Origin: Naegleria gruberi
Lineage: Eukaryota
Direction: 5' to 3' (one strand)
DNA: 64,000 nt
NCBI GenBank assembly: GCA_000004985.1
Contig: GG738846.1
Both the position numbers and the translations under genes were made by a program. The notes under the pieces were generated by a model. That model saw only the letters and a list, made by a program, of their open reading frames with translations. It was not told where the DNA came from and searched no databases. This document shows, one piece after another, positions 1 through 10,651 of this stretch; the first letter of the stretch is position 1; every line of letters begins with the position of its first letter.

Positions 1-792
1 GGCAAATTAATTGCAGGTACTACAGATCAACCAACTAATTTAGATGAACGTCCTTCACCAACTAGCTCTGAAATTGATTTTATTTTAGATACAATGAAAT
101 CTTGCCTCAATGTTCCACTTTCAAGGGAGGATATTTCATCTTCATGGACAGGAATTAGGCCTCTCGTAAAACCTCCAACCAATTCATCGGAAGGAACAAA
201 GAGTATCTCCAGAGAGCATTATATTGACACGAGCAAGAATTCTTTAATAACTGTAGCTGGCGGAAAGTGGACAACATTCAGAAAGATTGGAGAAGATACC
301 ATAGATATGGCATTGACCGTTTTATTTAAAAAATCCCCAAATTTAGCCATTGTTATGGATCCATTATCCAAGACAAGGGACATTCCATTAATTGGTGCCT
401 CAAAGGAATGGGAAAATATCAAACAAGTTAACAATAGTCCATCTTCATCCATTAGTGATGAGACATGGGATCATCTGAAACATTTTTATGGAGATAGAGC
501 TACTGAAGTATTGGAGCTCTCAGAAAAGTCAAAACTCACCAGCAAACTCTCAGAAAAGTATCCAATCATTGAAGGAGAAGTTCTCTATCAAGTTAAAAAC
601 GAAATGGCACTCAAAGCACACGATATTATTGCCTATAGAATGAGTTTAATGTTCATTGATAGAAATGAATCAAAAAATATTGCAAGAAGAGTAGTTGATG
701 TAATGGGTGATTATTATAAGTGGAATGATCAAAGGAGATTGAAGGAATACCAAGAAACCATTTCATATATTGATGAATGCACAAAAAATTAA
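1..792 (+). CDS. FAD-dependent (mitochondrial) glycerol-3-phosphate dehydrogenase, C-terminal part (5' end outside window)
   Basis: Frame 1 is open from nt 1 (GKLIAGTTDQPTNLDERPSP...). It continues into track ORF 94..792. Motifs GGKWTTFR, WTGIRPLV and the C-terminal alpha-helical DAO_C-like region match GUT2/GPD2-type enzymes. Confidence 0.75.
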   Translation, partial: GKLIAGTTDQPTNLDERPSPTSSEIDFILDTMKSCLNVPLSREDISSSWTGIRPLVKPPTNSSEGTKSISREHYIDTSKNSLITVAGGKWTTFRKIGEDTIDMALTVLFKKSPNLAIVMDPLSKTRDIPLIGASKEWENIKQVNNSPSSSISDETWDHLKHFYGDRATEVLELSEKSKLTSKLSEKYPIIEGEVLYQVKNEMALKAHDIIAYRMSLMFIDRNESKNIARRVVDVMGDYYKWNDQRRLKEYQETISYIDECTKN

Positions 793-870: not shown

Positions 871-1857
871 ATGTCTCACTATTTGCCAACCACACTCTCA
901 ACATATGTTCTGGCAACTAATACAGCCTTGTTCAGTTTTATTTTACTCCTGTTAATATCATGTTTTTTATTATTGTGGATAACAAGTAGAGTGAAAGGAA
1001 ATAAGAATCAATTAAATAATAATTTGATGATTGCACTACATGTTTCTGTGACTGTAAAATTATGTAATATCGGAATGATTTGCCTTTTTTTATTAATAAT
1101 ACAATCAGCTGTATTTATTTGGTATGGATGGATGTTTGATCAAAGTGGCCAATATCAAATTGTTCACTTGTCAGGATCAATAATTTTAGTTATTTTGGAT
1201 TATTTATTTCAGGTTGCATTGACATTGTTCGTATCAACTCTATCTTTTGAATGTATTAGGAAAGCTTGCAAAGTTTCAATTATCAAATATCATGGAAAAT
1301 GGTTTTCAATTTTATGTTCAATTTTAATATTTGTCACTATTTTCACACCCTTTTTTGCTTATATTGTCACACCTATAGCTTTTATTTTACACCAATTTTG
1401 TTCATTTGTTTCACCAGGAATTGTGGAAAGTGCTACCTGGTCTTCAAATCTAGTACATGCGTCAGTGATAGGATGGTGCTCAATCACAATGATTGGATTT
1501 GGATTAAAATTGAGGAATGAAAATAATCATCTTGTTGATCATTTAGATAATGATTTTAATGAAAACGAAACTCAAGTTTCATTGAAATCAAAACAAGCTG
1601 GAAATTTATTTATTTTCATATCAATTGCATTATTGTTATATTGTTTAATATTCCTCATCCAAAATTCATTTTTGCAAATACCACAAATCTATTCCAGAGA
1701 ATTGAGTAGTTTGAGCTCGAACACAACCTCTGTAAATATTCATTTGTGGTTGAACATTATACCTCAATTCTATAATCCTATCTTGTTCCTAGTTTTTGGA
1801 CTTTGTCTTGGAAAATTCAACAGCGTTAGAGATCTAGATATGTACATTAATCAATAA
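871..1857 (+). CDS. polytopic membrane protein (about 7-8 predicted TM helices), function unknown
   Basis: 328-aa ORF with repeated 20-25 residue hydrophobic stretches. No recognisable catalytic motif. Confidence 0.45.
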   Translation: MSHYLPTTLSTYVLATNTALFSFILLLLISCFLLLWITSRVKGNKNQLNNNLMIALHVSVTVKLCNIGMICLFLLIIQSAVFIWYGWMFDQSGQYQIVHLSGSIILVILDYLFQVALTLFVSTLSFECIRKACKVSIIKYHGKWFSILCSILIFVTIFTPFFAYIVTPIAFILHQFCSFVSPGIVESATWSSNLVHASVIGWCSITMIGFGLKLRNENNHLVDHLDNDFNENETQVSLKSKQAGNLFIFISIALLLYCLIFLIQNSFLQIPQIYSRELSSLSSNTTSVNIHLWLNIIPQFYNPILFLVFGLCLGKFNSVRDLDMYINQ

Positions 1858-1868
1858 ATTATTATTAT

Positions 1869-4800
1869 TTAATTATCTGAAGAACTACAAATTGGACAAG
1901 CCACAACTCCGTTATTATTTGTAAAACATCCCTTATGGAAAACAAGTTTACATGATTGACACTTGATAACCTGGCTAATGTTAAAGTCATAAATTGGACC
2001 TGTTGCACAAGAAGCACATAAATTCTTTGCCTTTGTTTGACATAATCCACACTGATTAATTATGTGTTCACTTAAAATATGGAATAGTTTGGAAAGTTTT
2101 TGTAAAAATGGAGAATCAACTTGTTTCATGTTCAATTCTTCTAAATTCTTAATACTATACATTTCAGTATCGGTCAGGTAGTGTAATCTGTGTTGTAAAT
2201 TATGTTGTTTGATTAAATTGTCTTTCATTGGACATCTGGAAACATATTCCCATTGGATGATTAATCTCTTTCTGATCATTCTGGCTGCTCCAAGATTTTG
2301 AATTTCATCAAATAATGTTGGTTTTATGGCACTGACACAAATAATTGGTTGTCTGTGAACACTTTTAAGATATTTGGAGGCTTCATCGCAAACTTTGTAT
2401 GGTTTGAAATCCCAACTACCCAATATCTTTGCTGGAATAACTTCTGTACAGGTATTGGAATGACATTTGGTACAATAGTATTTGTTTGTATAATTACAAT
2501 AACGTGGCTTTTTGAGGAATCCGTAATCTTTCCAAATCTCTCTACCACATGGACACTTATCACCTTGTAATTGAATTTGCTTTGTTTGATCTAACTTTTG
2601 AGCATTCTTAGCTTGTTCATCCTCTTCAAGAATTAATTGATAGTCAACATCATTAATGATAGACATTATATCACTACCATCTTCGGTGAGTGCCTCATCA
2701 TTGTTTTGATCGAATAACAAGTCACGATTATCCATAGCCGATAAAGTAGTTGACTTGTTAGAAATTGTTGAGGAAGGAGGTGGTACCATCTTTTCAACAA
2801 ATACGAAATCATCACTTTCTTCTCTCTTAACTGGTGTTGTTTGTGATTCCTTATCAGCTAGTGCTACAGTGTTGCTGGTTGTTGGTGGATTGGATTTAAG
2901 TGTTTCAATTTCAGCATCTTTTGTTCCTAATTGCTCATTTGCTTGTTCGAGTGATTGTTTAACAAGTTGAATTTCTTGTTTGATAATCTCATTTTCAGAT
3001 TCTCTTGTTTTGAGATTAACTTTGGTCTGTTCAAGTGATTGTTTTAGAGCTTCAATTTCTTGCTGCATTTGTGATATCTTATTTTCAAACTCAATTTGCT
3101 TGTTAGATAATTCAGAACGTTTAGATTCCAGCTCTGTTTCAATTTTTGTCCTTTGATCCATTAATTCTTTTTCCTTCTTTTTGTAAATTTGTTCTTGAAT
3201 TTCACACTTGTTAGAAATTTGAATCTCCTTCAGTTTCAATCTATCTTCTCTATATCTGACCTTTTCAGCAAGAATTGAAACATCCAATAATGAGGTTGAA
3301 TGAGGAAGAGTGTCTTCAATAATAATGTCTTTTCTTTCTGAGTATTGCATCCTTTCTAAAATGTTTTCGTATCTGTCCTTTTTGGCTTTCATTGAAATTT
3401 GTAAATCTTCAGATTTTAACAATGGATGAATATAACTCTTAAAAAAAGAATACATTTCACTGGCTGTTAATAATTTCTGGGCTGATTCAACATTACGATC
3501 AAAATCAACAATTATCACCTTTTGTTCTTGTTGTGGAGGTTGATCAGCATCATCAATTTCTGTAGCGTCTTCTTCAAATTCAGATAAAGTGTCAGAATCA
3601 GCAGACTCAGAACCAAGTAAAGAGTCAACTTCTAGATCAACCCTGTTAAGTGGAGGAGCTAATGATACATTTTCAGATAATTGAGCAATATTCGAAACAG
3701 TCAATTCAAGTTTTGGTTCTTCTATGGTTTCAATCTTGTCGGTTTGTTCCTCAAGCTGAATAGATATTACTGAATCCTTCTGTTCTTGTGTTGGAGAGAT
3801 CTTTTCCGATTCTTCTTTTGGAGGGCTTTCAACAACTGGACTAACAGTTTCGGTTGAAATTTGTATCTTAACTTCTTCCTCCTTCGATGATGTTGGAATA
3901 GCCCCTTGTTTGATTTCACTCTCAGGTTGAACAATATCTGAAGAATCATGAATTTCAGGTGTTGTTCCTCTAGACGTCTCTTCTGATATGAAATAGGATT
4001 CCATAGCTGCAATGATGGAATTTTCAGAATCATTGTCAGAGAATGAGTCATTTGTCTCTACCTTTGGAGAAAGCTCAAATGCTCTCCAGTATGGCAGCAC
4101 TTTATCAAGCTCCTTTTCGAAGATATCCTGTAAAACCTTGGCCATTCTAACCTGAGGTGATGACTCTAAATGGAACATGAACGAATTCGTAAATACGGTT
4201 TGTATATCCCTAATAAATTCATCAATATAGACATAGTGAGATTTTTCAAAGTTAGTTTTGATGATTGTAAAATCTATAGGTTTTTTGATAAACTTGGAAT
4301 AATCTCTAAATTCGGCGAGCTTTTCATTAACAGGAGAGTTGAAATGGGATGCATATTTATGGCTCATAAGAATGGAAAGAATTCGTGTCATATTATCTCT
4401 AAGTTCTGAATTGTCTCTGAGACTGGATGAAAATCTTGGAGGTGGAGTTGACAGCAGACTAATATCATTAATCTTTGAAGAGGTATTTTCTGGGGTGGAT
4501 GAAATTTCCTGAGATGATATATTTTCTTCTTTTTGAGCCAGAATATCTATTGGTTTGGATTGTTCTACTTGTTGAGTTTGAATTGAAGGAGGTATTATTT
4601 CTTCAATGAATTGGTTTTCTTGAATTTCCTGATTAATATTAACCTCTTGTTTTGAAACCTCTTCAGTTGATTCTAAAATATCGTTATTCTCCTCTATAGA
4701 AGAGATATTCTCAATAGGAGTATCCTTAGGAGTTTCAATATTTTCTATAGATATTGTGTTAGAAATAGTAGGCTGTTGTTCCTCTGATTTTTCCTCTAAT

Positions 4801-5974
4801 TTTTCATTTACCTGCTGTTCAGCAATTGCTGTAGGAATGGTAGATGAATCATCATCGACCCTAGCATCTTGTTCAGTAGGATGCGTAACAACAACCTGCT
4901 CATCTTTAGAGATTTTTTCAATAGTTTTTTCCAGTTTTTCTTGGCCAACACTGTTTGATACTTCTTGATTTGATTGAGTGATCATACTCGATTCTAACTG
5001 GTTCGATTGAACATTCTCGGATTGATTAGGCACTGATGAGAAATCATCTAGTAAATCAACTGGATCTTCCCTTATGACTTTTCTTTCAATTGTTGTGGTG
5101 GAAACTGTTCCAAAATCCTTTTCAACACTGGTGTTGGTTGTAGGCGTAATAGGTGTTGGAGTACTTGGTAGCGATTGTTTAAAGCTTGTACTCTTATCAC
5201 TTTCACTGGTAGCACTTGTTGGAGTTAAATCCTCCGATCCAATACTGCTACTTGTTGCAGTGTTTGTATCAATTGTTTTTTTATCCAATTTAGTCTTCTT
5301 TTTCTTTTCAGTTTTTTCAGGTTTAACCTTCTTTTCAGTTTTCTTTTTTTTACGAGTTGATGTCACAACAATTTCATCCTCTTCCATGTTGGTTATTTCC
5401 TTGCTTTTTTTTGTTTTAAATATCCAAATGGATTTGAAAAGGAAACTTACAAATTAAAGTTAATTGTTGAAAGAGGAGATACTAAACTCTTTAAAAATAA
5501 TATTTCCTCATCCATAAAGAATAAATCATTCACTCGCTCATTGTAAAATTTCTCTTTTGGTATCATTGAAAATAGGTCAACCAAATCAATTAATATTTTC
5601 TCATTCAAAGTTAATTTAATAATAGAACTATCATGTGACTCAAAATTTTGTAATTGTTTAACTTTTGATTTTAAATCTGATTTGTCAATGCTGAACGTCT
5701 TGTTCAGAGGAAATTGAGAAAAATTTGTATAAATATATCGGAAAATGTCTTGTAAAGTAATGGATGCCACCAATCCATCGGAAAATAAACGATGTAAAGT
5801 TTCACTATTGATGATGTTTAAATTAATAATAATTTAGTTGACATGTGTTTCAGCAGCAACCTACCATAATTCATTGGCTCCTTTAGACTCTTCATCAATT
5901 TCTGGCAATGTTAATGAGGCTTGAAATATTGTCTTGATGGCCATCTTGACCATCTGCAGTCGCTCCGAAAACAT
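1869..5974 (-). CDS. Rubicon-like protein: N-terminal RUN-like block, atypical bromodomain, coiled coil, C-terminal Cys-rich Rubicon-homology (DUF4206-like) domain
   Basis: Track ORFs 1869..5387 and 5447..5773 join through a 47-nt GTAAGT...AAAAAG intron (about 5404..5450). A further 5' exon (about 5865..5974, MFSERLQMVKMAIK...) joins via a 60-nt GTAGGT...AATAG intron. The RUN block reads LCETLHRLFSDGL. The bromodomain (about nt 4090..4400) aligns with BRD4 BD1 (FNSPV..DY.KFIKKPIDFTIIK..VFTNSFMFH). The C-terminal 230 aa are rich in CxxC pairs, as in Rubicon, PLEKHM1 and DEF8. Confidence 0.7.
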
Positions 5975-6078: not shown

Positions 6079-7393
6079 CTACAATTCTGAATAGAGTGAT
6101 TCTAATCCTTGGCCTAATTCCCAAATCATCACACCTGCCAATCTCTTCTCCTTTACAAAATCAACTCTTGACTTGATGGACTCAAGAGTTGGGTAGGCCA
6201 CCAATGTGATTTTATCAGGTTGTACAAACTCAAAAATGTGCTCTCTGGCCTCACTATCCCAAATTATACTATGAAGTGTTTGTGTATTATTCAATAATTC
6301 TTTCAATTTGGAACCAAGAATATGATCCAATTTAGTTTGTTTTGGTGTAAGATATTTTGAAATGAGGACTGTAGCTTCTTCAGTGGAATCCTTAATTAAA
6401 TCTGATAATAGAGAATTGGTATTTTCCATTTCAATTTGAATGCCATAAAAATTTAAGCCAACAAATAACTTTTGAGCGATATTGGTGTTTGAGCCACTCA
6501 ATGTAAAATAATTAACTGTTTGGTCAATAAATCCCTCAAGAGGACCATTGAAAATATACTTTTGAGAAGTGTCCTTAGAGCTCATATGAGAGAAATAATC
6601 ATAGGTCATTAATAAAAATCCATCAACATATGGTTCAATTTCAATTAAATGTTCAACTCTGAACAATGCTGAAAACTTTTGTTCATTTCTCGTTGGGGGA
6701 ACAAGAGATGGAACAACCAAATGAATTTCTCCCTTTTTGTTCAAGCTGTTTACCTTTTCCCTTAAAGATTTCATAAAATCTACAATAATGTGTTTAATTT
6801 GATCCATAGGTAAAAATCCAACCTCTACAACAATTCCATCCAAGTCGTAGGCTCTTATGAGTTGTCCTATTTTATCAATAATTGGCTGATGTAAATTCTT
6901 GTTGAATTTTGGTTGACCATAAAAATATCTAACTTGTTCTTGACCCCAATGGGAATAATCGAATTGAACTCTTGGTAAAATCTTGGCTAAGATTCATGAA
7001 TTATTATCATTCAAAATTCATTAAATAATTACCTCCAATATTTTGTTTTTTCACTTGTTTAATCCAATTCATGTCCACATCTTGAATTCCTGTAATTTGA
7101 AATGGAGAGTTTGGTTTTTGTTGGGATGGTCGAATTTGTAACCAAACAGGACTAATTAATTTAACTTTTTCATGTGTTTTGGCAACATTATATCCATTGC
7201 TATTCCATGGTGTGACAAAACCTAACACTTTATTTGATCTAAGAGAGGCGCTACTGCCAGTCTCGGAAAGTAATTTTTCAATAACTTGTTCCTTTTCATT
7301 TTCCGATAATTTTCTCAAGGTACTTTGAATACTGCTGCTACTAGTGATCAAAAACAAGATGAGAAATAATGTAAATAAAAGGGATGTTTGCAT
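6079..7393 (-). CDS. CHID1: chitinase domain-containing protein 1 (CHID1/SI-CLP-like GH18 family), secreted
   Basis: Two exons (about 7033..7393 and 6079..6986) joined by a 46-nt GTAATT...CTTAG intron. Signal peptide, then VLGFVTPWNSNGYNVAK...ISPVWLQI, GIVVEVG, LLMTYDY and the C-terminal GVMIWELGQGLESLYSEL. This aligns along the whole length with human CHID1. Confidence 0.8.
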
Positions 7394-7435: not shown

Positions 7436-8371
7436 CTAAAAGTATCTTCTGTCATTGATATCATCAGAAACTTGGCTCCCACTATCTGATTCCTCTTGGT
7501 CATTCATTTCCATATGGCCCATTGTCTCAATATCACTCTTGTAGGAATAACACCTCTTAATAGAAACAATAGTTAAAGGAATTACGAAAAATGCAAAAAT
7601 TGCACCAGATGCAATCAAAAAACCCAATGCCAGATATCCTGCCAAACTTGTCAATTGAGATCTTCCTGGATAATAAAAATCAATTGTTCTTTCATAAAAT
7701 CCAATAACGCTCTTATCAAGAGGATTAACGTAGCAAGATCTTGTTTCCATAATTTTGGAAAACATGAGATATTGAGCTGGTATGGCTGTTGAATTTTCGT
7801 TACCAGGGAAGTGAATATTTAAAATGTCGCCACTTTGTAAAGGTTTAAAGTTCTCATCTGTTTTATATGAAACTACAAACTCATCAATTGTAATTTCATT
7901 TCTTTGGCTGACACCATCACTTGAATAATTTACCAATGCTTTGCATAATTTGAATTCCAATTTATCCGTAGACACTGTAATACCATCAACTATTACAAGG
8001 TGATCCCTTTCATCATCCGATAAGTAATGTAAGTGATCGAAAAAATCAGAAAATTTCCATTTATCTTTTGTGACAAGTAAGTCCTCCAAATCAGATTCAG
8101 TACAATTCACGGACAAATCCCTGACTGTACAAGATATTACATCAGAAAGTAAAGGATCATCTTTAGAATTTCGGGCTAAAATTGTTGATGAAGCGTAAAC
8201 ATAGAGGAATAGAGTGGCCAAACCAACAATAATCAGAAAAATCAAACAACAAATAATATTAAAAATTGATAAAATTGACAATCGGATGAGAGCCTTTTTT
8301 TTGATAGAACTCCTCTCCAAGGAGTGTTCATTATTTCTGGATAACACGTCTCTAGAAACAATACTGTGCAT
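7436..8371 (-). CDS. membrane protein with N- and C-terminal TM segments and an acidic tail, unknown function
   Basis: 311-aa ORF with hydrophobic stretches LIRLSILSIFNIICCLIFLIIVGLATLFLYV and LAGYLALGFLIASGAIFAFFVIPLTIV. No known domain recognised. Confidence 0.4.
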   Translation of the reverse strand: MHSIVSRDVLSRNNEHSLERSSIKKKALIRLSILSIFNIICCLIFLIIVGLATLFLYVYASSTILARNSKDDPLLSDVISCTVRDLSVNCTESDLEDLLVTKDKWKFSDFFDHLHYLSDDERDHLVIVDGITVSTDKLEFKLCKALVNYSSDGVSQRNEITIDEFVVSYKTDENFKPLQSGDILNIHFPGNENSTAIPAQYLMFSKIMETRSCYVNPLDKSVIGFYERTIDFYYPGRSQLTSLAGYLALGFLIASGAIFAFFVIPLTIVSIKRCYSYKSDIETMGHMEMNDQEESDSGSQVSDDINDRRYF

Positions 8372-8497: not shown

Positions 8498-10651
8498 TCA
8501 ATCAATGATTTGAGTCAAATTTATTAATTGAAAATGAATGGAAAAGGATAACTTTGGTCCAACAAAAGAAAATAATTGTTCATTGCTAATAAATTCCTTC
8601 AAAACCTTACGAACATTAAGATGACGATCTATCCATTCCTTCTTTAGTTTGGAGGAAAGAAAATTCTTTTCATAATATGAGTTTAGTCCAAATGTAACAC
8701 AACCATAATCTAAACAATTAACAACAATATCAAATCTATCCAAAATTTCTAATGGAAGTGTTGGATTTTTGGAGAGAACACTCGAAAACGTATTAAAAAC
8801 AAAATCCACTAATTTCACCATATTGTTAGCAGTAATTCTTGTTGAAAAGTGAATAGGAGGTGATAGTAGAACTATTTGTTCAATAGAACAAGACAACTTG
8901 TGGTCTTGCTTATACTTGAACTCTTTTCTGTCAAAATAATCCATTCCACTTAAAGAAAACAAGTCATAATCTATGGGAATAGCTTGGCTGTCGGCATGTT
9001 GATAGTAGTAAATGGATCGGCTCTTATTCCATTTTATCATGAATAGAAACCCATTGCTTAGACCATTGAAATTGGGATCATGGCTCTTATTGGAATAAAT
9101 AGTCCTTTCTATGAAATCATCCTTATAGTACAGAGAAGTAACAAGGTCCTCCATTGTCTTGGCACAACATTTCACAACAAGAGTATCCTTATCAAATTCA
9201 ATCTCATCTCTCTGCAAATCAAAACACCAATCAAATCTTAGTGAAGAAAATGAATAGTTAGAACACTTTCCAGAGTTATTCCTTGTAAATATTGATCCAT
9301 CAGAGAGTAAATAACCAAAATCTTGAAAAAACTCTCTATGAACACCACAATTAATCAAAATACCATTATGTTGATACTGTTTTGAATTTTCTTCACAGAG
9401 TGACCTTACTAGATATTCGTGCACTCCCGAGGGAATGTTTACAGTTACTTCATAGGATACCAAGGAAAGTGAAACTGTAATAGATTGAGGATAAATATCA
9501 CTACCGATCTTCATATGGAATGAACCGTAGTCGGTTGTATCAGTGATCATAAAATCTGTAACCTGTGACAGTGTTTTAAACTGATATGAACATTCTTGTT
9601 GAGCCTTCTCTTGATGGACTTTGTATGTTGCACTATTACAATAATTCGATAATGATTGATTTAACCTTTTGGAAAAACTATTCCAATAAGTTGTGGGAAA
9701 GGTGGCATTGTTAAAACCCTCTTGTAGAAGATATCTCGTCAAACCTCTGTTTTGTATTTTTAAAAATGATTCTCTGTTTAGCATTCTTATTATGAGAATG
9801 GGAGATTTGATTGCCGTTGGATTGAAGTATTGTAATGGTACACATGATTGAGAAGTAATGTTATGGAATAGAATTGCAAATAAGTTGTTATCATCATATT
9901 CACGGTTGTTAATATCTTCTAAAATGTCTGGTAATACAAGTATCAAATTATTCCTTAACAGTAAATTACTTTTTTTACAATGTGAAAAGAGACGGTTGTA
10001 GAGTGGAATTATGGCATCAGCAACAGGTTCAACAAGATGTGAAAATACAAAATCTAAAACAAAACTTTCTTCTCTTGAATTGGAAAATTCCTTCTTATTC
10101 ACTTCCGAATATTGTTCTTCAAGAGATGCTGGTTGTATCAAAGTAGTAGACTTGTCGTTTTCTACAACTTGATTGTATTCTTGTTGAATCTTATTCTGAA
10201 GAGATAACAGAGTGTGTTCAGTATCGAAAACGGTGAGCAATTCACATTCATAAAAACCTTCCGTTAAAAAGGCAATTGTGATACCGAGTCTATTATTTCT
10301 ATCAATAATGTTATCAGTTTGTTCATTAAATATTATTCTTTTGAATAAAATTATTTTCAATTTCAAACCTTGTTCATTGATGAGAATATTGGAGAGGAAA
10401 GGTACTTTTCCATTATTCTTGTTATCAGAAGATATGTTGGAATTATAATGTTGTTCTTGATGGATATTATTATTTTGGAAGGAAATAGTAGTAGTATTGA
10501 GTAGTAAATCATTACTACTATCAATATGTGATGGTACTTTGATTGAAGAACATAGATCTTTTAAATTTTGTTCAATTAATTCTTCTAAAAGAGATTCAAC
10601 AATCCATTCGATTTTTGTCTTGTCATCTTGTTGATATTTACTTCCTAGCAT
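8498..10651 (-). CDS. hypothetical protein (717 aa)
   Basis: Long uninterrupted ORF with a coding-like composition. No motif recognised. Confidence 0.45.
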   Translation of the reverse strand: MLGSKYQQDDKTKIEWIVESLLEELIEQNLKDLCSSIKVPSHIDSSNDLLLNTTTISFQNNNIHQEQHYNSNISSDNKNNGKVPFLSNILINEQGLKLKIILFKRIIFNEQTDNIIDRNNRLGITIAFLTEGFYECELLTVFDTEHTLLSLQNKIQQEYNQVVENDKSTTLIQPASLEEQYSEVNKKEFSNSREESFVLDFVFSHLVEPVADAIIPLYNRLFSHCKKSNLLLRNNLILVLPDILEDINNREYDDNNLFAILFHNITSQSCVPLQYFNPTAIKSPILIIRMLNRESFLKIQNRGLTRYLLQEGFNNATFPTTYWNSFSKRLNQSLSNYCNSATYKVHQEKAQQECSYQFKTLSQVTDFMITDTTDYGSFHMKIGSDIYPQSITVSLSLVSYEVTVNIPSGVHEYLVRSLCEENSKQYQHNGILINCGVHREFFQDFGYLLSDGSIFTRNNSGKCSNYSFSSLRFDWCFDLQRDEIEFDKDTLVVKCCAKTMEDLVTSLYYKDDFIERTIYSNKSHDPNFNGLSNGFLFMIKWNKSRSIYYYQHADSQAIPIDYDLFSLSGMDYFDRKEFKYKQDHKLSCSIEQIVLLSPPIHFSTRITANNMVKLVDFVFNTFSSVLSKNPTLPLEILDRFDIVVNCLDYGCVTFGLNSYYEKNFLSSKLKKEWIDRHLNVRKVLKEFISNEQLFSFVGPKLSFSIHFQLINLTQIID

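What the first reader, a model, noticed from the sequence alone, without database searches (positions are those of the whole stretch)
1869..5974. Rubicon-like autophagy/endosome regulator carrying an inserted atypical bromodomain
Joining the track ORFs through two short in-frame introns gives a protein of about 1330 aa. It has an N-terminal RUN-like block, a central bromodomain and a C-terminal Cys-rich Rubicon-homology domain. The bromodomain aligns convincingly with BRD4 BD1 (FNSPV...DY.KFIKKPIDFTIIK...VFTNSFMFH). The RUN plus RH combination is the Rubicon/Pacer/PLEKHM signature. A bromodomain in this context is not a known architecture. The acetyl-lysine-anchoring Asn is replaced by His (NSFMFH versus NCYIYN), which predicts altered or lost acetyl-lysine binding.
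Basis: partly seen in the sequence, partly recalled or inferred. Interest (0 to 1): 0.65.

Follow-up and report, generated by a model that had tools for sequence, protein, structure and literature searches.

The report
Naegleria RUN–bromodomain–Rubicon-homology protein
This is a real three-exon Naegleria gruberi gene whose 1332-residue protein puts a chromatin-type "acetyl-lysine reader" (bromodomain, with its key Asn replaced by His) inside a Rubicon/PLEKHM1-type endosome and autophagy adaptor, a combination found only in Naegleria and one close environmental relative and never studied.

Summary
On the minus strand, exons 5974-5865, 5804-5451 and 5403-1869 join through GT..AG introns of 60 and 47 nt into a 1332-aa protein. 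Pfam finds a Rubicon-homology (RH) domain (E=1e-49), a bromodomain (E=1e-15) and a borderline RUN domain (21.8 bits against a cut-off of 22; the same weak hit appears in two orthologs).

N. fowleri and N. lovaniensis proteins align end to end, and the exon junctions fall at identical codon positions. A metagenome contig adds a fourth taxon. The public N. gruberi model (1172 aa) lacks the RUN-like exons.

The acetyl-lysine-anchoring Asn (BRD4 N140) is His in all four taxa, while the pocket Tyr is kept.

An exhaustive HMMER scan of 1.84 billion representatives found both domains together only in Naegleria. A related contig carries RUN-like + polybasic + mid block + RH with no bromodomain, so the bromodomain is a lineage-specific insertion.

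The function is inferred: RH probably binds Rab7, a conserved acidic F-x-x-V motif may bind Atg8, and the bromodomain reads an unknown ligand.

Verdict: a new variant of a known kind, of moderate interest. It is catalogued in databases but undescribed in the searched literature.

The parts
5865..5974 (-). Exon 1 (ATG at 5974; residues 1-36 plus 2 nt of codon 37)
   Evidence: The N-terminus MFSERLQMVKMAIK matches MLSERLQTVKIA of N. fowleri and N. lovaniensis.
5805..5864 (-). Intron 1, 60 nt, GT..AG, phase 2 inside the Cys37 codon (TG|T)
   Evidence: The N. fowleri genomic contig L002 has its junction at the same codon and phase (TG|C). Retention gives an immediate TAG.
5451..5804 (-). Exon 2 (residues 37-155, the bulk of the RUN-like domain)
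5404..5450 (-). Intron 2, 47 nt, GTAAGT..AG, phase 2 inside the Phe155 codon (TT|C)
   Evidence: N. fowleri (L002) and metagenome contig L001 share the same position and phase. Coding similarity continues upstream of the annotated Met (FKEITNMEEDEIVV against FKDLAENDEEEIVV).
1869..5403 (-). Exon 3 (residues 155-1332 plus the stop codon). It contains the 1172-aa ORF that is the current public gene model.
   Evidence: P0001, 100% identity.
5403..5872 (-). RUN-like domain, residues 35-155 (spans both introns)
   Evidence: Pfam RUN scores 21.8 bits (cut-off 22), E=2.2e-4, covering profile positions 1-127 of 131. The orthologs score 14.0 and 14.3 bits at the same coordinates. hhalign against five bona fide RUN domains of RUN+RH proteins gives P=0.0011 over 136 columns, in register on three RUN motifs. 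Identity to N. fowleri is 62%, against about 20% in the flanking linker.
5286..5354 (-). Polybasic stretch (RKKKKTEKKVKPEKTEKKKKTKL), preceded by the invariant EED(E/D)IVV(T/K)STRKKKK
   Evidence: Conserved in four taxa. Similar stretches occur in the bromodomain-less relatives P0013, P0011 and L003. Its role (nuclear localisation signal or membrane binding) is untested.
4137..4385 (-). Bromodomain, Pfam residues 495-577 (full four-helix unit about 485-600, window 4068-4415)
   Evidence: Pfam E=1e-15. BRD4 BD1 is the best solved relative. The AF2 model has pLDDT 79, and all 50 best Foldseek PDB matches are bromodomains. Identity to orthologs is 59%.
4170..4172 (-). His566 codon, at the position of the acetyl-lysine-anchoring Asn (BRD4 N140)
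   Evidence: It is His in N. gruberi, N. fowleri, N. lovaniensis and L001. Tyr523, equivalent to BRD4 Y97 (window 4299-4301), is retained.
3198..3650 (-). Conserved 'mid' block with no Pfam family (LNRVD.EVDSLL ... LSEFEEDA.EI ... SEMYSFF.SY ... KKDRYENILER ... SILAEKVRYREDRLKLKE)
   Evidence: 51-54% identity across four taxa, between linkers of 11-21%. Its C-terminal half is shared with the bromodomain-less relative P0007/L003.
2883..3245 (-). E/K/Q-rich, probably coiled-coil segment (about residues 875-995)
   Evidence: Read from the sequence composition. Length and sequence are poorly conserved (13-21% identity). No coiled-coil predictor was run.
2796..2813 (-). Candidate Atg8-interacting (LIR/GIM-like) motif DDFVFV, residues 1019-1024
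   Evidence: It is the only acidic [WFY]xx[LIV] motif conserved in all four taxa (DDFVFV, DEFILI, DEFILI, DEFVLI). It fits the LIR core [W/F/Y]-X1-X2-[I/L/V] and, in N. gruberi, the GIM [W/F]-[V/I]-X2-V defined on the PLEKHM1 LIR EDEWVNV (PMC5538626). Binding is untested.
1881..2504 (-). Rubicon-homology (RH) domain, residues 1122-1329. The protein ends 3 residues later.
   Evidence: Pfam E=1.2e-49 over profile positions 1-203 of 206. phmmer against the human Rubicon RH structure 6WCW gives E=3e-22, with the Cys/His zinc-ligand positions aligned. Identity to orthologs is 75%.

Best explanation
One three-exon Naegleria gruberi gene (minus strand, 5974..1869) encodes a 1332-aa multidomain adaptor of the Rubicon-homology family. 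Its order is: RUN-like domain, polybasic stretch, bromodomain, a conserved unnamed mid block, a coiled-coil-like segment, an acidic F-x-x-V motif, and a C-terminal four-zinc-cluster RH domain.

Proposed mechanism:
- The RH domain docks the protein on Rab7-GTP-positive late endosomes, lysosomes or autophagosomes, as in Rubicon and PLEKHM1.
- The conserved DDFVFV motif contacts Atg8, as the PLEKHM1 LIR does.
- The RUN-like domain binds a second small GTPase or partner.
- The lineage-specific bromodomain has His in place of the anchoring Asn but keeps the pocket Tyr. It is under purifying selection and adds recognition of a modified-lysine or other ligand, coupling that ligand to the endolysosomal system.

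Shown here: the gene model, the domain content, the Asn-to-His change and its conservation, the restriction of the architecture to the Naegleria lineage, and the existence of a bromodomain-less relative.

Inferred: Rab7 binding, Atg8 binding, any ligand of the bromodomain, and any role in autophagy.
For: Gene model:
- Canonical introns whose retention gives immediate stops.
- N. fowleri (1230 aa) and N. lovaniensis (1292 aa) proteins align from Met1 to the C-terminus.
- Junction codon and phase are identical in N. fowleri genomic DNA and in metagenome contig L001.
- The upstream GH18 gene is syntenic.

Domains:
- Pfam RH 169.5 bits, bromodomain 57.9 bits, RUN 21.8/14.0/14.3 bits in three species.
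- RUN hhalign P=0.0011.
- RH aligns to Rubicon 6WCW at E=3e-22, with the Cys/His ligands and Rab7-pocket residues L883 and K887 conserved (PMC7382272).
- The bromodomain fold is confirmed.

Selection: the four blocks are 51-75% identical across species, against 11-27% in the long linkers and the coiled-coil segment and 32-42% in the short linker before RH. His566 and Tyr523 are invariant.

Architecture:
- Among the 150 best hits from 1.84 billion representatives, only Naegleria proteins carry both domains.
- L003 has the scaffold without a bromodomain.
- RUN+...+RH with variable middle modules (PH, C1, PX) is the recurrent theme of the family.

LIR-like motif: it is the only such motif conserved in four taxa.
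Against: - No experiment or transcript data were available.
- RUN stays just under Pfam's cut-off. AF2 could not fold the N-terminus (pLDDT 37), and a PDB profile search found nothing.
- Rubicon residues T825, A886 and F889 are R, T and N here. The arginine-rich C-terminal helix (R931-R939), whose mutation impairs Rab7 colocalisation, is absent because the protein ends 6 residues after the last Cys. Rab7 binding could therefore be weaker or different.
- The LIR-like motif is short and is not present in the bromodomain-less relative P0007.
- The bromodomain model is too poor in the ZA loop (pLDDT below 60, rmsd 7-8 A to templates) to judge the pocket.
- A polybasic, NLS-like stretch together with a bromodomain could instead indicate a nuclear role.
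Confidence: 0.6

Rival explanations
1. It is an ordinary RUN-RH Rab7 effector in which the bromodomain no longer reads acyl-lysine. The domain would serve only as a structural or protein-protein interaction module, as reported for several human non-Asn bromodomains, so the novelty is architectural and not functional.
For: The anchoring Asn is replaced. The WPF shelf is SHF, and the residue aligned with BRD4 I146 is Gln. In humans, 13 of 61 bromodomains lack the Asn (PMC5977933). A relative functions without the domain (L003).
Against: The domain is 58-59% identical across four taxa, while flanking linkers are about 11-27%. The pocket Tyr and most hydrophobic pocket positions are kept. His can donate a hydrogen bond, and it recurs at this position in unrelated protist bromodomains, which suggests a functional variant rather than decay.
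Confidence: 0.3
2. It is a nuclear or chromatin-associated protein. The polybasic stretch would be a nuclear localisation signal, the bromodomain would read histones, and the Cys-rich RH module would act as a zinc-finger reader rather than a Rab7 effector.
For: There is a conserved polybasic run. The bromodomain is closest to BET bromodomains. The Rab7-contacting C-terminal helix and some pocket residues of Rubicon are missing.
Against: The RH match covers the full length at E=1e-49 with the aligned Cys/His zinc-ligand positions matching. The RUN-like domain and RH are both cytoplasmic trafficking modules, and relatives combine RH with PX, PH and C1 membrane-binding domains. No other chromatin domain was found.
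Confidence: 0.08
3. This is a gene-model artefact. The RUN-like exons (5447..5974) would be a separate small gene ending at the TAA inside the GTAAGT donor, and the bromodomain-RH protein would start at the ATG at 5387, as in the public annotation.
For: The public N. gruberi model starts at 5387. A stop overlaps each donor site.
Against: The orthologous N. fowleri and N. lovaniensis models include the N-terminus. Junction position and phase are conserved in three genomic sequences, and coding similarity continues between the acceptor and the annotated Met. Only 59 nt separate the ORF's stop codon (5447-5449) from the ATG at 5387. The bromodomain-less relative L003 has the same RUN-like exon directly upstream.
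Confidence: 0.04

Closest known systems
Human Rubicon (RUBCN; RH domain structure 6WCW with Rab7-GTP)
   Same: N-terminal RUN(-like) domain, a central coiled-coil-like region and a C-terminal RH domain. The RH domains align at E=3e-22 with the Cys/His zinc ligands and pocket residues L883 and K887 conserved.
   Different: Rubicon has no bromodomain. T825, A886 and F889 differ here, and the C-terminal arginine helix is absent. No similarity was detected outside RUN and RH, so orthology and PI3K-complex binding are not established. The paper calls RH proteins a metazoan class, whereas this one is heterolobosean.
PLEKHM1 (RUN - PH - LIR - PH - C1 - RH adaptor binding Rab7, HOPS and GABARAP)
   Same: RUN at the N-terminus, RH at the C-terminus, and an acidic aromatic-x-x-V motif in the linker before the C-terminal module (EDEWVNV against SDDFVFV). 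A PLEKHM1-like hit (P0134: RUN+PH+RH) is in the same hit set.
   Different: No PH or C1 domains were found here. A bromodomain and an unnamed mid block occupy the middle of the protein.
BET-family bromodomains (BRD4 BD1)
   Same: BRD4 BD1 is the best solved sequence relative (48.5 bits over about 106 residues). The four-helix fold, the Y97 equivalent, the PxD and DY motifs are kept.
   Different: There is a single bromodomain and no ET domain. N140 is His, Y139 is Phe in N. gruberi, the WPF shelf is SHF, and the residue aligned with I146 is Gln.
Atypical (non-Asn) bromodomains such as PHIP(2)
   Same: The conserved Asn is replaced while the fold and the water-anchoring Tyr remain (PMC5977933).
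   Different: Human atypical domains carry Tyr, Thr or Asp, not His. His variants were seen here only in protist or metagenome proteins, for example Plasmodiophora brassicae. None of those sits in a trafficking protein.
Bromodomain-less heterolobosean-type RUN-like/RH proteins (L003/P0007; Percolomonas P0013; P0011; Acrasis kona P0006/P0153)
   Same: These are the closest RH domains (41-53% identity). L003 also has the RUN-like last exon, the polybasic stretch and half of the mid block, in the same order.
   Different: No bromodomain is found even at relaxed thresholds or in the six-frame translation. The LIR-like motif is not conserved in P0007.

Membership tests
Rubicon-homology (RH) domain family, PF13901 | Profile match above the curated cut-off over the whole domain | tested here: met
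   169.5 bits against a cut-off of 28.1, profile positions 1-203 of 206. Orthologs score 171.6 and 173.7 bits.
Rubicon-homology (RH) domain family, PF13901 | Conserved Cys/His ligands of the four zinc clusters (nine Cys plus one His originally noted) | tested here: met
   In the alignment to 6WCW, the Cys/His positions of Rubicon aligned with Cys/His here; only the first pair is offset (CxC against CxxC). The feature is defined in PMC7382272.
Rubicon-homology (RH) domain family, PF13901 | Rab7 Switch-II pocket residues (Rubicon T825, L883, A886, K887, F889) | tested here: inconclusive
   L883 and K887 are conserved. T825 is Arg, A886 is Thr and F889 is Asn (N. fowleri has Phe one position later) (mapped).
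Rubicon-homology (RH) domain family, PF13901 | C-terminal helix alpha13 with R931/R934/R938/R939 contacting Rab7 | tested here: not met
   The protein ends 6 residues after the last zinc-ligand Cys (CPICSSSDN*) in all three Naegleria species.
Rubicon-homology (RH) domain family, PF13901 | GTP-dependent binding to Rab7 | not testable with these tools
   This needs a pull-down or ITC with Naegleria Rab7.
Rubicon proper (orthology) | RUN domain at the N-terminus | tested here: inconclusive
   Pfam RUN scores 21.8 bits against a cut-off of 22 (N. gruberi), and 14.0 and 14.3 bits in the orthologs, with full profile coverage. hhalign gives P=0.0011, probability 20%. AF2 failed.
Rubicon proper (orthology) | Central region that binds the Beclin 1-UVRAG-VPS34 complex | not testable with these tools
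   No profile exists for that region. No sequence similarity outside RUN and RH was detected to any solved chain.
Bromodomain, PF00439 | Profile match above the cut-off and a left-handed four-helix bundle | tested here: met
   57.9 bits against a cut-off of 21.7. AF2 pLDDT is 79 with helices Z, A, B and C, and all 50 best Foldseek PDB matches are bromodomains.
Bromodomain, PF00439 | Conserved Asn at the end of helix B that hydrogen-bonds the acetyl-lysine carbonyl | tested here: not met
   It is His566 in N. gruberi and His in N. fowleri, N. lovaniensis and L001. At this alignment column, 258 of 279 bromodomain segments in the hit set have Asn and 13 have His; four of those 13 are this family.
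Bromodomain, PF00439 | Conserved ZA-loop Tyr (BRD4 Y97) anchoring the water network | tested here: met
   Tyr523 aligns with Y97 (RDYSKF against PDYYKI) and is invariant in four taxa.
Bromodomain, PF00439 | Binding of acetyl-lysine peptides | not testable with these tools
   This needs peptide arrays or ITC. The model is unreliable in the ZA loop.
BET family | Two tandem bromodomains plus an ET domain | tested here: not met
   There is one bromodomain and no ET/BET hit.
PLEKHM1-like adaptors | PH domains and a C1 domain between RUN and RH | tested here: not met
   There is no PH or C1 hit at E<=1. True examples in the hit set do show them (P0134, P0111).
PLEKHM1-like adaptors | Functional LIR that binds Atg8/GABARAP | tested here: inconclusive
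   A sequence motif fits and is conserved in four taxa (definition in PMC5538626). Binding was not tested.

The most novel reading that the evidence does not exclude
The His-type bromodomain is a working reader of acetylated or otherwise acylated lysine on a cytoplasmic or organellar target (for example acetylated tubulin, or chromatin destined for degradation). It would physically couple that mark to Rab7 and Atg8 membranes. That would make this protein a selective-autophagy or endolysosomal adaptor that recognises cargo by lysine acylation, a cargo-selection principle not known for any RH-family or bromodomain protein.
Probability: 0.12. Interest if true: 0.75.

Novelty: new variant of a known kind. 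Interest (0 to 1): 0.45.

Why it matters
Bromodomains are almost always nuclear chromatin readers, while RH-domain proteins (Rubicon, Pacer, PLEKHM1) are Rab7-linked regulators of late endosome and autophagosome maturation. A selectively maintained bromodomain inside such an adaptor would, if functional, link lysine acylation directly to endolysosomal traffic.

The finding also:
- shows that RUN-RH adaptors exist in Heterolobosea, not only in metazoans;
- corrects the N. gruberi reference gene model by 160 residues;
- provides a natural Asn-to-His bromodomain for studying pocket chemistry.

The ortholog in the pathogen N. fowleri has no human counterpart with this architecture.

Tried and rejected
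- AF2 of the N-terminal 173 residues with a three-row alignment gave pLDDT 37 and was unusable, so no fold search was done on it.
- A profile search of the N-terminus against PDB sequences found only chance hits, E>=0.19.
- hhalign of the Naegleria N-terminus against the Percolomonas-type N-termini (A6), and of A6 against RUN domains, was not significant. Orthology with P0011 and P0013 is therefore left open.
- The search for homologous proteins with the RH domain alone returned nothing, not even the self protein. I treated this as a limit of the word index, not as evidence.
- The same tool with the N-terminal alignment returned only an N. fowleri ORF fragment. That fragment did give the N. 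fowleri genomic locus.
- A scan of JGI metagenome contigs with the bromo-to-RH alignment found no relatives.
- The bromodomain AF2 model confirms the fold but not the pocket geometry: the ZA loop has pLDDT below 60 and rmsd is 7-8 A. No statement about His orientation is made.
- Literature searches for 'Rubicon homology'+bromodomain and Naegleria+Rubicon returned no papers.
- No tRNA or Rfam family lies in the window.
- Antisense plus-strand ORFs inside the gene (for example 5074-5457 and 4170-4409) are low-complexity mirror ORFs with no support, and I disregarded them.
Full report
**Source and gene model.** The window is AT-rich eukaryotic DNA (about 30% GC). The long minus-strand ORF 5387..1869 is 100% identical to the NCBI protein 'bromodomain-containing protein [Naegleria gruberi]', 1172 aa.

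Reading the minus strand upstream shows an ATG at 5974, a GT..AG intron at 5864-5805 (60 nt) and a GTAAGT..AG intron at 5450-5404 (47 nt). If retained, each intron gives an immediate stop.

Splicing gives a 3999-nt CDS and a 1332-aa protein. The junctions fall inside codon 37 (TG|T, Cys) and codon 155 (TT|C, Phe).

**Support for the joined model.**
- The N. fowleri (1230 aa) and N. lovaniensis (1292 aa) proteins align with the spliced N. gruberi protein from Met1 to the C-terminus. This includes residues 1-160, which the public N. gruberi model lacks.
- A Logan contig of N. fowleri (L002) shows junctions at the same codons and phases (TG|C; TT|C). It has one extra intron inside the RUN-like region, and the same GH18 gene sits upstream as in the window at 6079-7393.
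- An ENA metagenome contig (L001, 3431 nt) from a fourth, unnamed relative carries, on one strand, the end of the RUN-like exon (FYNDKVNDFLYKEEEIVFLKSLLTPLSTINFA), a GTAAGT intron and the same TT|C junction.
- In L001 this is followed by KDLAENDEEEIVVKSTRKKKK, the bromodomain, the mid block and an RH domain that runs off the contig.
- Coding similarity continues upstream of the annotated Met. I consider the three-exon model very likely, although no transcript data were available.

**Domains.**
- Pfam finds RH_dom at 1122-1329 (E=1.2e-49), Bromodomain at 495-577 (E=1e-15) and RUN at 35-155 (16.1 bits).
- On the N-terminal region alone, RUN is the top hit at 21.8 bits (cut-off 22, E=2.2e-4). It reappears at the same coordinates with full profile coverage in N. 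fowleri (14.0 bits) and N. lovaniensis (14.3 bits).
- A profile-profile comparison with five bona fide RUN domains, taken from RUN+RH proteins in the hit set, gave P=0.0011 over 136 columns.
- That alignment is in register on three RUN motifs: LCxxLxxxxxxGL; LxLNE; FY...FLKSL..L..INF.
- AF2 could not fold this region from three sequences (pLDDT 37), and PDB sequence profiles gave nothing.
- RUN is therefore 'probable, borderline'.

**RH domain.** It aligns with the human Rubicon RH crystal structure chain 6WCW_A (E=3e-22), with the Cys/His zinc-ligand positions aligned.

I validated the numbering on four letters (L883, A886, K887, F889). Of the residues mutated by Bhargava et al. (PMC7382272):
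- L883 and K887 are conserved;
- T825, A886 and F889 are R, T and N here;
- the arginine-rich C-terminal helix is absent, because the protein ends 6 residues after the last Cys.

The domain is an intact RH fold by sequence. Rab7 binding is inferred, not assured.

**Bromodomain.**
- The best solved relative is BRD4 BD1 (48.5 bits for the domain). TNSFMFH aligns with TNCYIYN, so His566 replaces N140. Y97 is kept as Tyr523, WPF becomes SHF, and the residue aligned with I146 is Gln.
- The closest database bromodomains outside the orthologs are two-bromodomain, BET-like proteins.
- The AF2 model (pLDDT 79, ZA loop below 60) matches only bromodomains among the 50 best PDB hits. TM is about 0.58 and rmsd 7-8 A, enough for the fold but not for pocket geometry.
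- His is invariant in all four taxa.
- At this column, among 279 bromodomain segments from the hit set, 258 have Asn and 13 have His. Nine of those 13 lie outside this family, for example in a Plasmodiophora brassicae multi-bromodomain protein.
- Human atypical bromodomains carry Tyr, Thr or Asp, not His (PMC5977933). The substitution is therefore unusual but not unique. Its conservation argues for altered rather than lost function.

**Pattern of conservation.** Identity between N. gruberi and N. fowleri by region:

| Region | Identity |
|---|---|
| RUN-like | 62% |
| Linker 1 | 22% |
| Bromodomain | 59% |
| Linker 2 | 18% |
| Unnamed mid block (residues about 740-890) | 54% |
| Coiled-coil-like segment | 19% |
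| Linker 3 | 32% |
| RH | 75% |

The bromodomain is as constrained as the other modules.

In the last linker, the only acidic [WFY]xx[LIV] motif conserved in all four taxa is DDFVFV / DEFILI / DEFILI / DEFVLI at residues 1019-1024. It fits the LIR core and, in N. gruberi, the GABARAP-interaction motif defined on PLEKHM1's EDEWVNV (PMC5538626). This is a lead, not a demonstration.

**Is the architecture known elsewhere?**
- A profile spanning bromodomain to RH was scored by HMMER against 1.84 billion representative proteins.
- Re-scanning the 150 best hits with separate domain profiles showed that only the Naegleria proteins have both domains; 91 hits have only bromodomains and 58 only RH.
- A protein with both domains would be expected to score above the list's lower bound of about 114 bits, but marginal or split gene calls could be missed. 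L001 itself was split into two calls.
- The closest RH domains (41-53% identity) belong to heterolobosean-type proteins without a bromodomain: Acrasis kona P0006/P0153, Percolomonas P0013, and the unnamed P0005, P0007, P0008 and P0011.
- For P0007, the whole 9.4-kb contig L003 was translated in six frames. It has a RUN-like last exon (…EEMSFLTSLFIQLKTIKFNL + GTAAG), a polybasic stretch, half of the mid block and RH, but no bromodomain.
- The scaffold therefore exists without the bromodomain, so 'inserted' (or lost in that lineage) is justified.
- Other RH proteins in the hit set pair RH with RUN+PH, RUN+C1, RUN+PX or PX. A variable middle between RUN and RH is the family's habit, and the bromodomain is a new filler.
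- No paper in the library holds 'Rubicon homology' with bromodomain, or Naegleria with Rubicon.
- A scan of JGI metagenome contigs found no further loci.

**Mechanism (inferred).** From established knowledge of Rubicon and PLEKHM1 (PMC7382272, PMC2993745, PMC5538626), the most likely role is an adaptor on Rab7-positive late endosomes, lysosomes or autophagosomes.
- The RH domain provides membrane targeting.
- The acidic F-x-x-V motif provides a possible Atg8 contact.
- The RUN-like domain provides a second GTPase or partner site.
- The bromodomain recognises an unknown, possibly acyl-lysine, ligand.

Rivals:
- the bromodomain is a non-reading structural module;
- the protein is nuclear (polybasic stretch plus bromodomain);
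- the RUN-like exons are a separate gene.

None can be excluded without experiments. The last is unlikely.

**Verdict.** The protein is a member of the RH-domain family and carries a bona fide but non-canonical bromodomain. It is not shown to be an ortholog of Rubicon.

It is a lineage-specific new variant of a known kind. It is catalogued with both Pfam domains in public databases but is undescribed, and the N. gruberi reference model is truncated at the N-terminus. Interest is moderate.

Surroundings: no tRNA or Rfam element lies in the window. Neighbours are ordinary: a glycerol-3-phosphate dehydrogenase C-terminal fragment, a GH18 protein and membrane proteins.

Noticed in passing
window 5387-5974 (minus strand): The public N. 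gruberi gene model (P0001, 1172 aa) starts at the ATG at 5387. It omits two upstream exons (160 residues, the RUN-like domain) that the N. fowleri and N. lovaniensis models include.
   Followed up: yes
L001:1780-1960: In the metagenome relative, the reading frame switches by one base in the linker after the bromodomain (…PKVETDHRNQ… in frame 1 to …SLNIVDTEVDSLL… in frame 2). The gene caller therefore split the gene in two. This could be an assembly error or an unrecognised short intron.
   Followed up: partly
L002:8300-8420 (N. fowleri): N. fowleri has an extra intron inside the RUN-like region (IPKE|GTAAGT…TAG|KFYNEK) that N. gruberi lacks. This is an intron gain or loss between congeners.
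   Followed up: partly
window 6079-7393 (minus strand) and L002:6694-7638: A GH18 (chitinase-like) gene, itself apparently split by an intron between 6843 and 7007, lies directly upstream in the same orientation in both N. gruberi and N. fowleri. Local synteny is conserved.
   Followed up: partly
window 94-792 (plus strand): This ORF has the C-terminal domain of alpha-glycerophosphate oxidase/dehydrogenase (DAO_C, E=8e-31). The gene evidently starts before the window.
   Followed up: no
proteins P0034, P0039, P0058, P0059, P0061, P0030, P0092 (hit set): Multi-bromodomain proteins from protists and metagenomes (for example Plasmodiophora brassicae) also have His at the acetyl-lysine-anchoring Asn position in one or more of their bromodomains. 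This His class is absent from the human set.
   Followed up: partly
proteins P0046, P0065, P0110, P0132, P0111 (hit set): RH domains combine with PX, RUN+PX and RUN+C1 in various unnamed eukaryotic proteins. RH proteins also occur in Heterolobosea (Naegleria, Acrasis, Percolomonas). This is at odds with the description of RH proteins as a metazoan class in PMC7382272.
   Followed up: partly
protein P0004 (Choanephora cucurbitarum, 2139 aa): Precomputed Pfam lists a bromodomain together with a Peptidase_M1 domain (PF01433) and three further families (PF25316, PF25577, PF25289) that I did not look up. This looks like an unusual fusion in a mucoralean fungus.
   Followed up: no
window 871-1857 (+), 7436-8371 (-), 8498-10651 (-): Three sizeable ORFs next to the gene (328, 311 and 717 aa; the first two look membrane-spanning) have no Pfam family at E<=0.01.
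   Followed up: no
tool behaviour: The word-indexed protein search returned no hit for the RH domain alone, and did not return the known orthologs for the N-terminal alignment. Negative results from that tool should not be read as absence.
   Followed up: no
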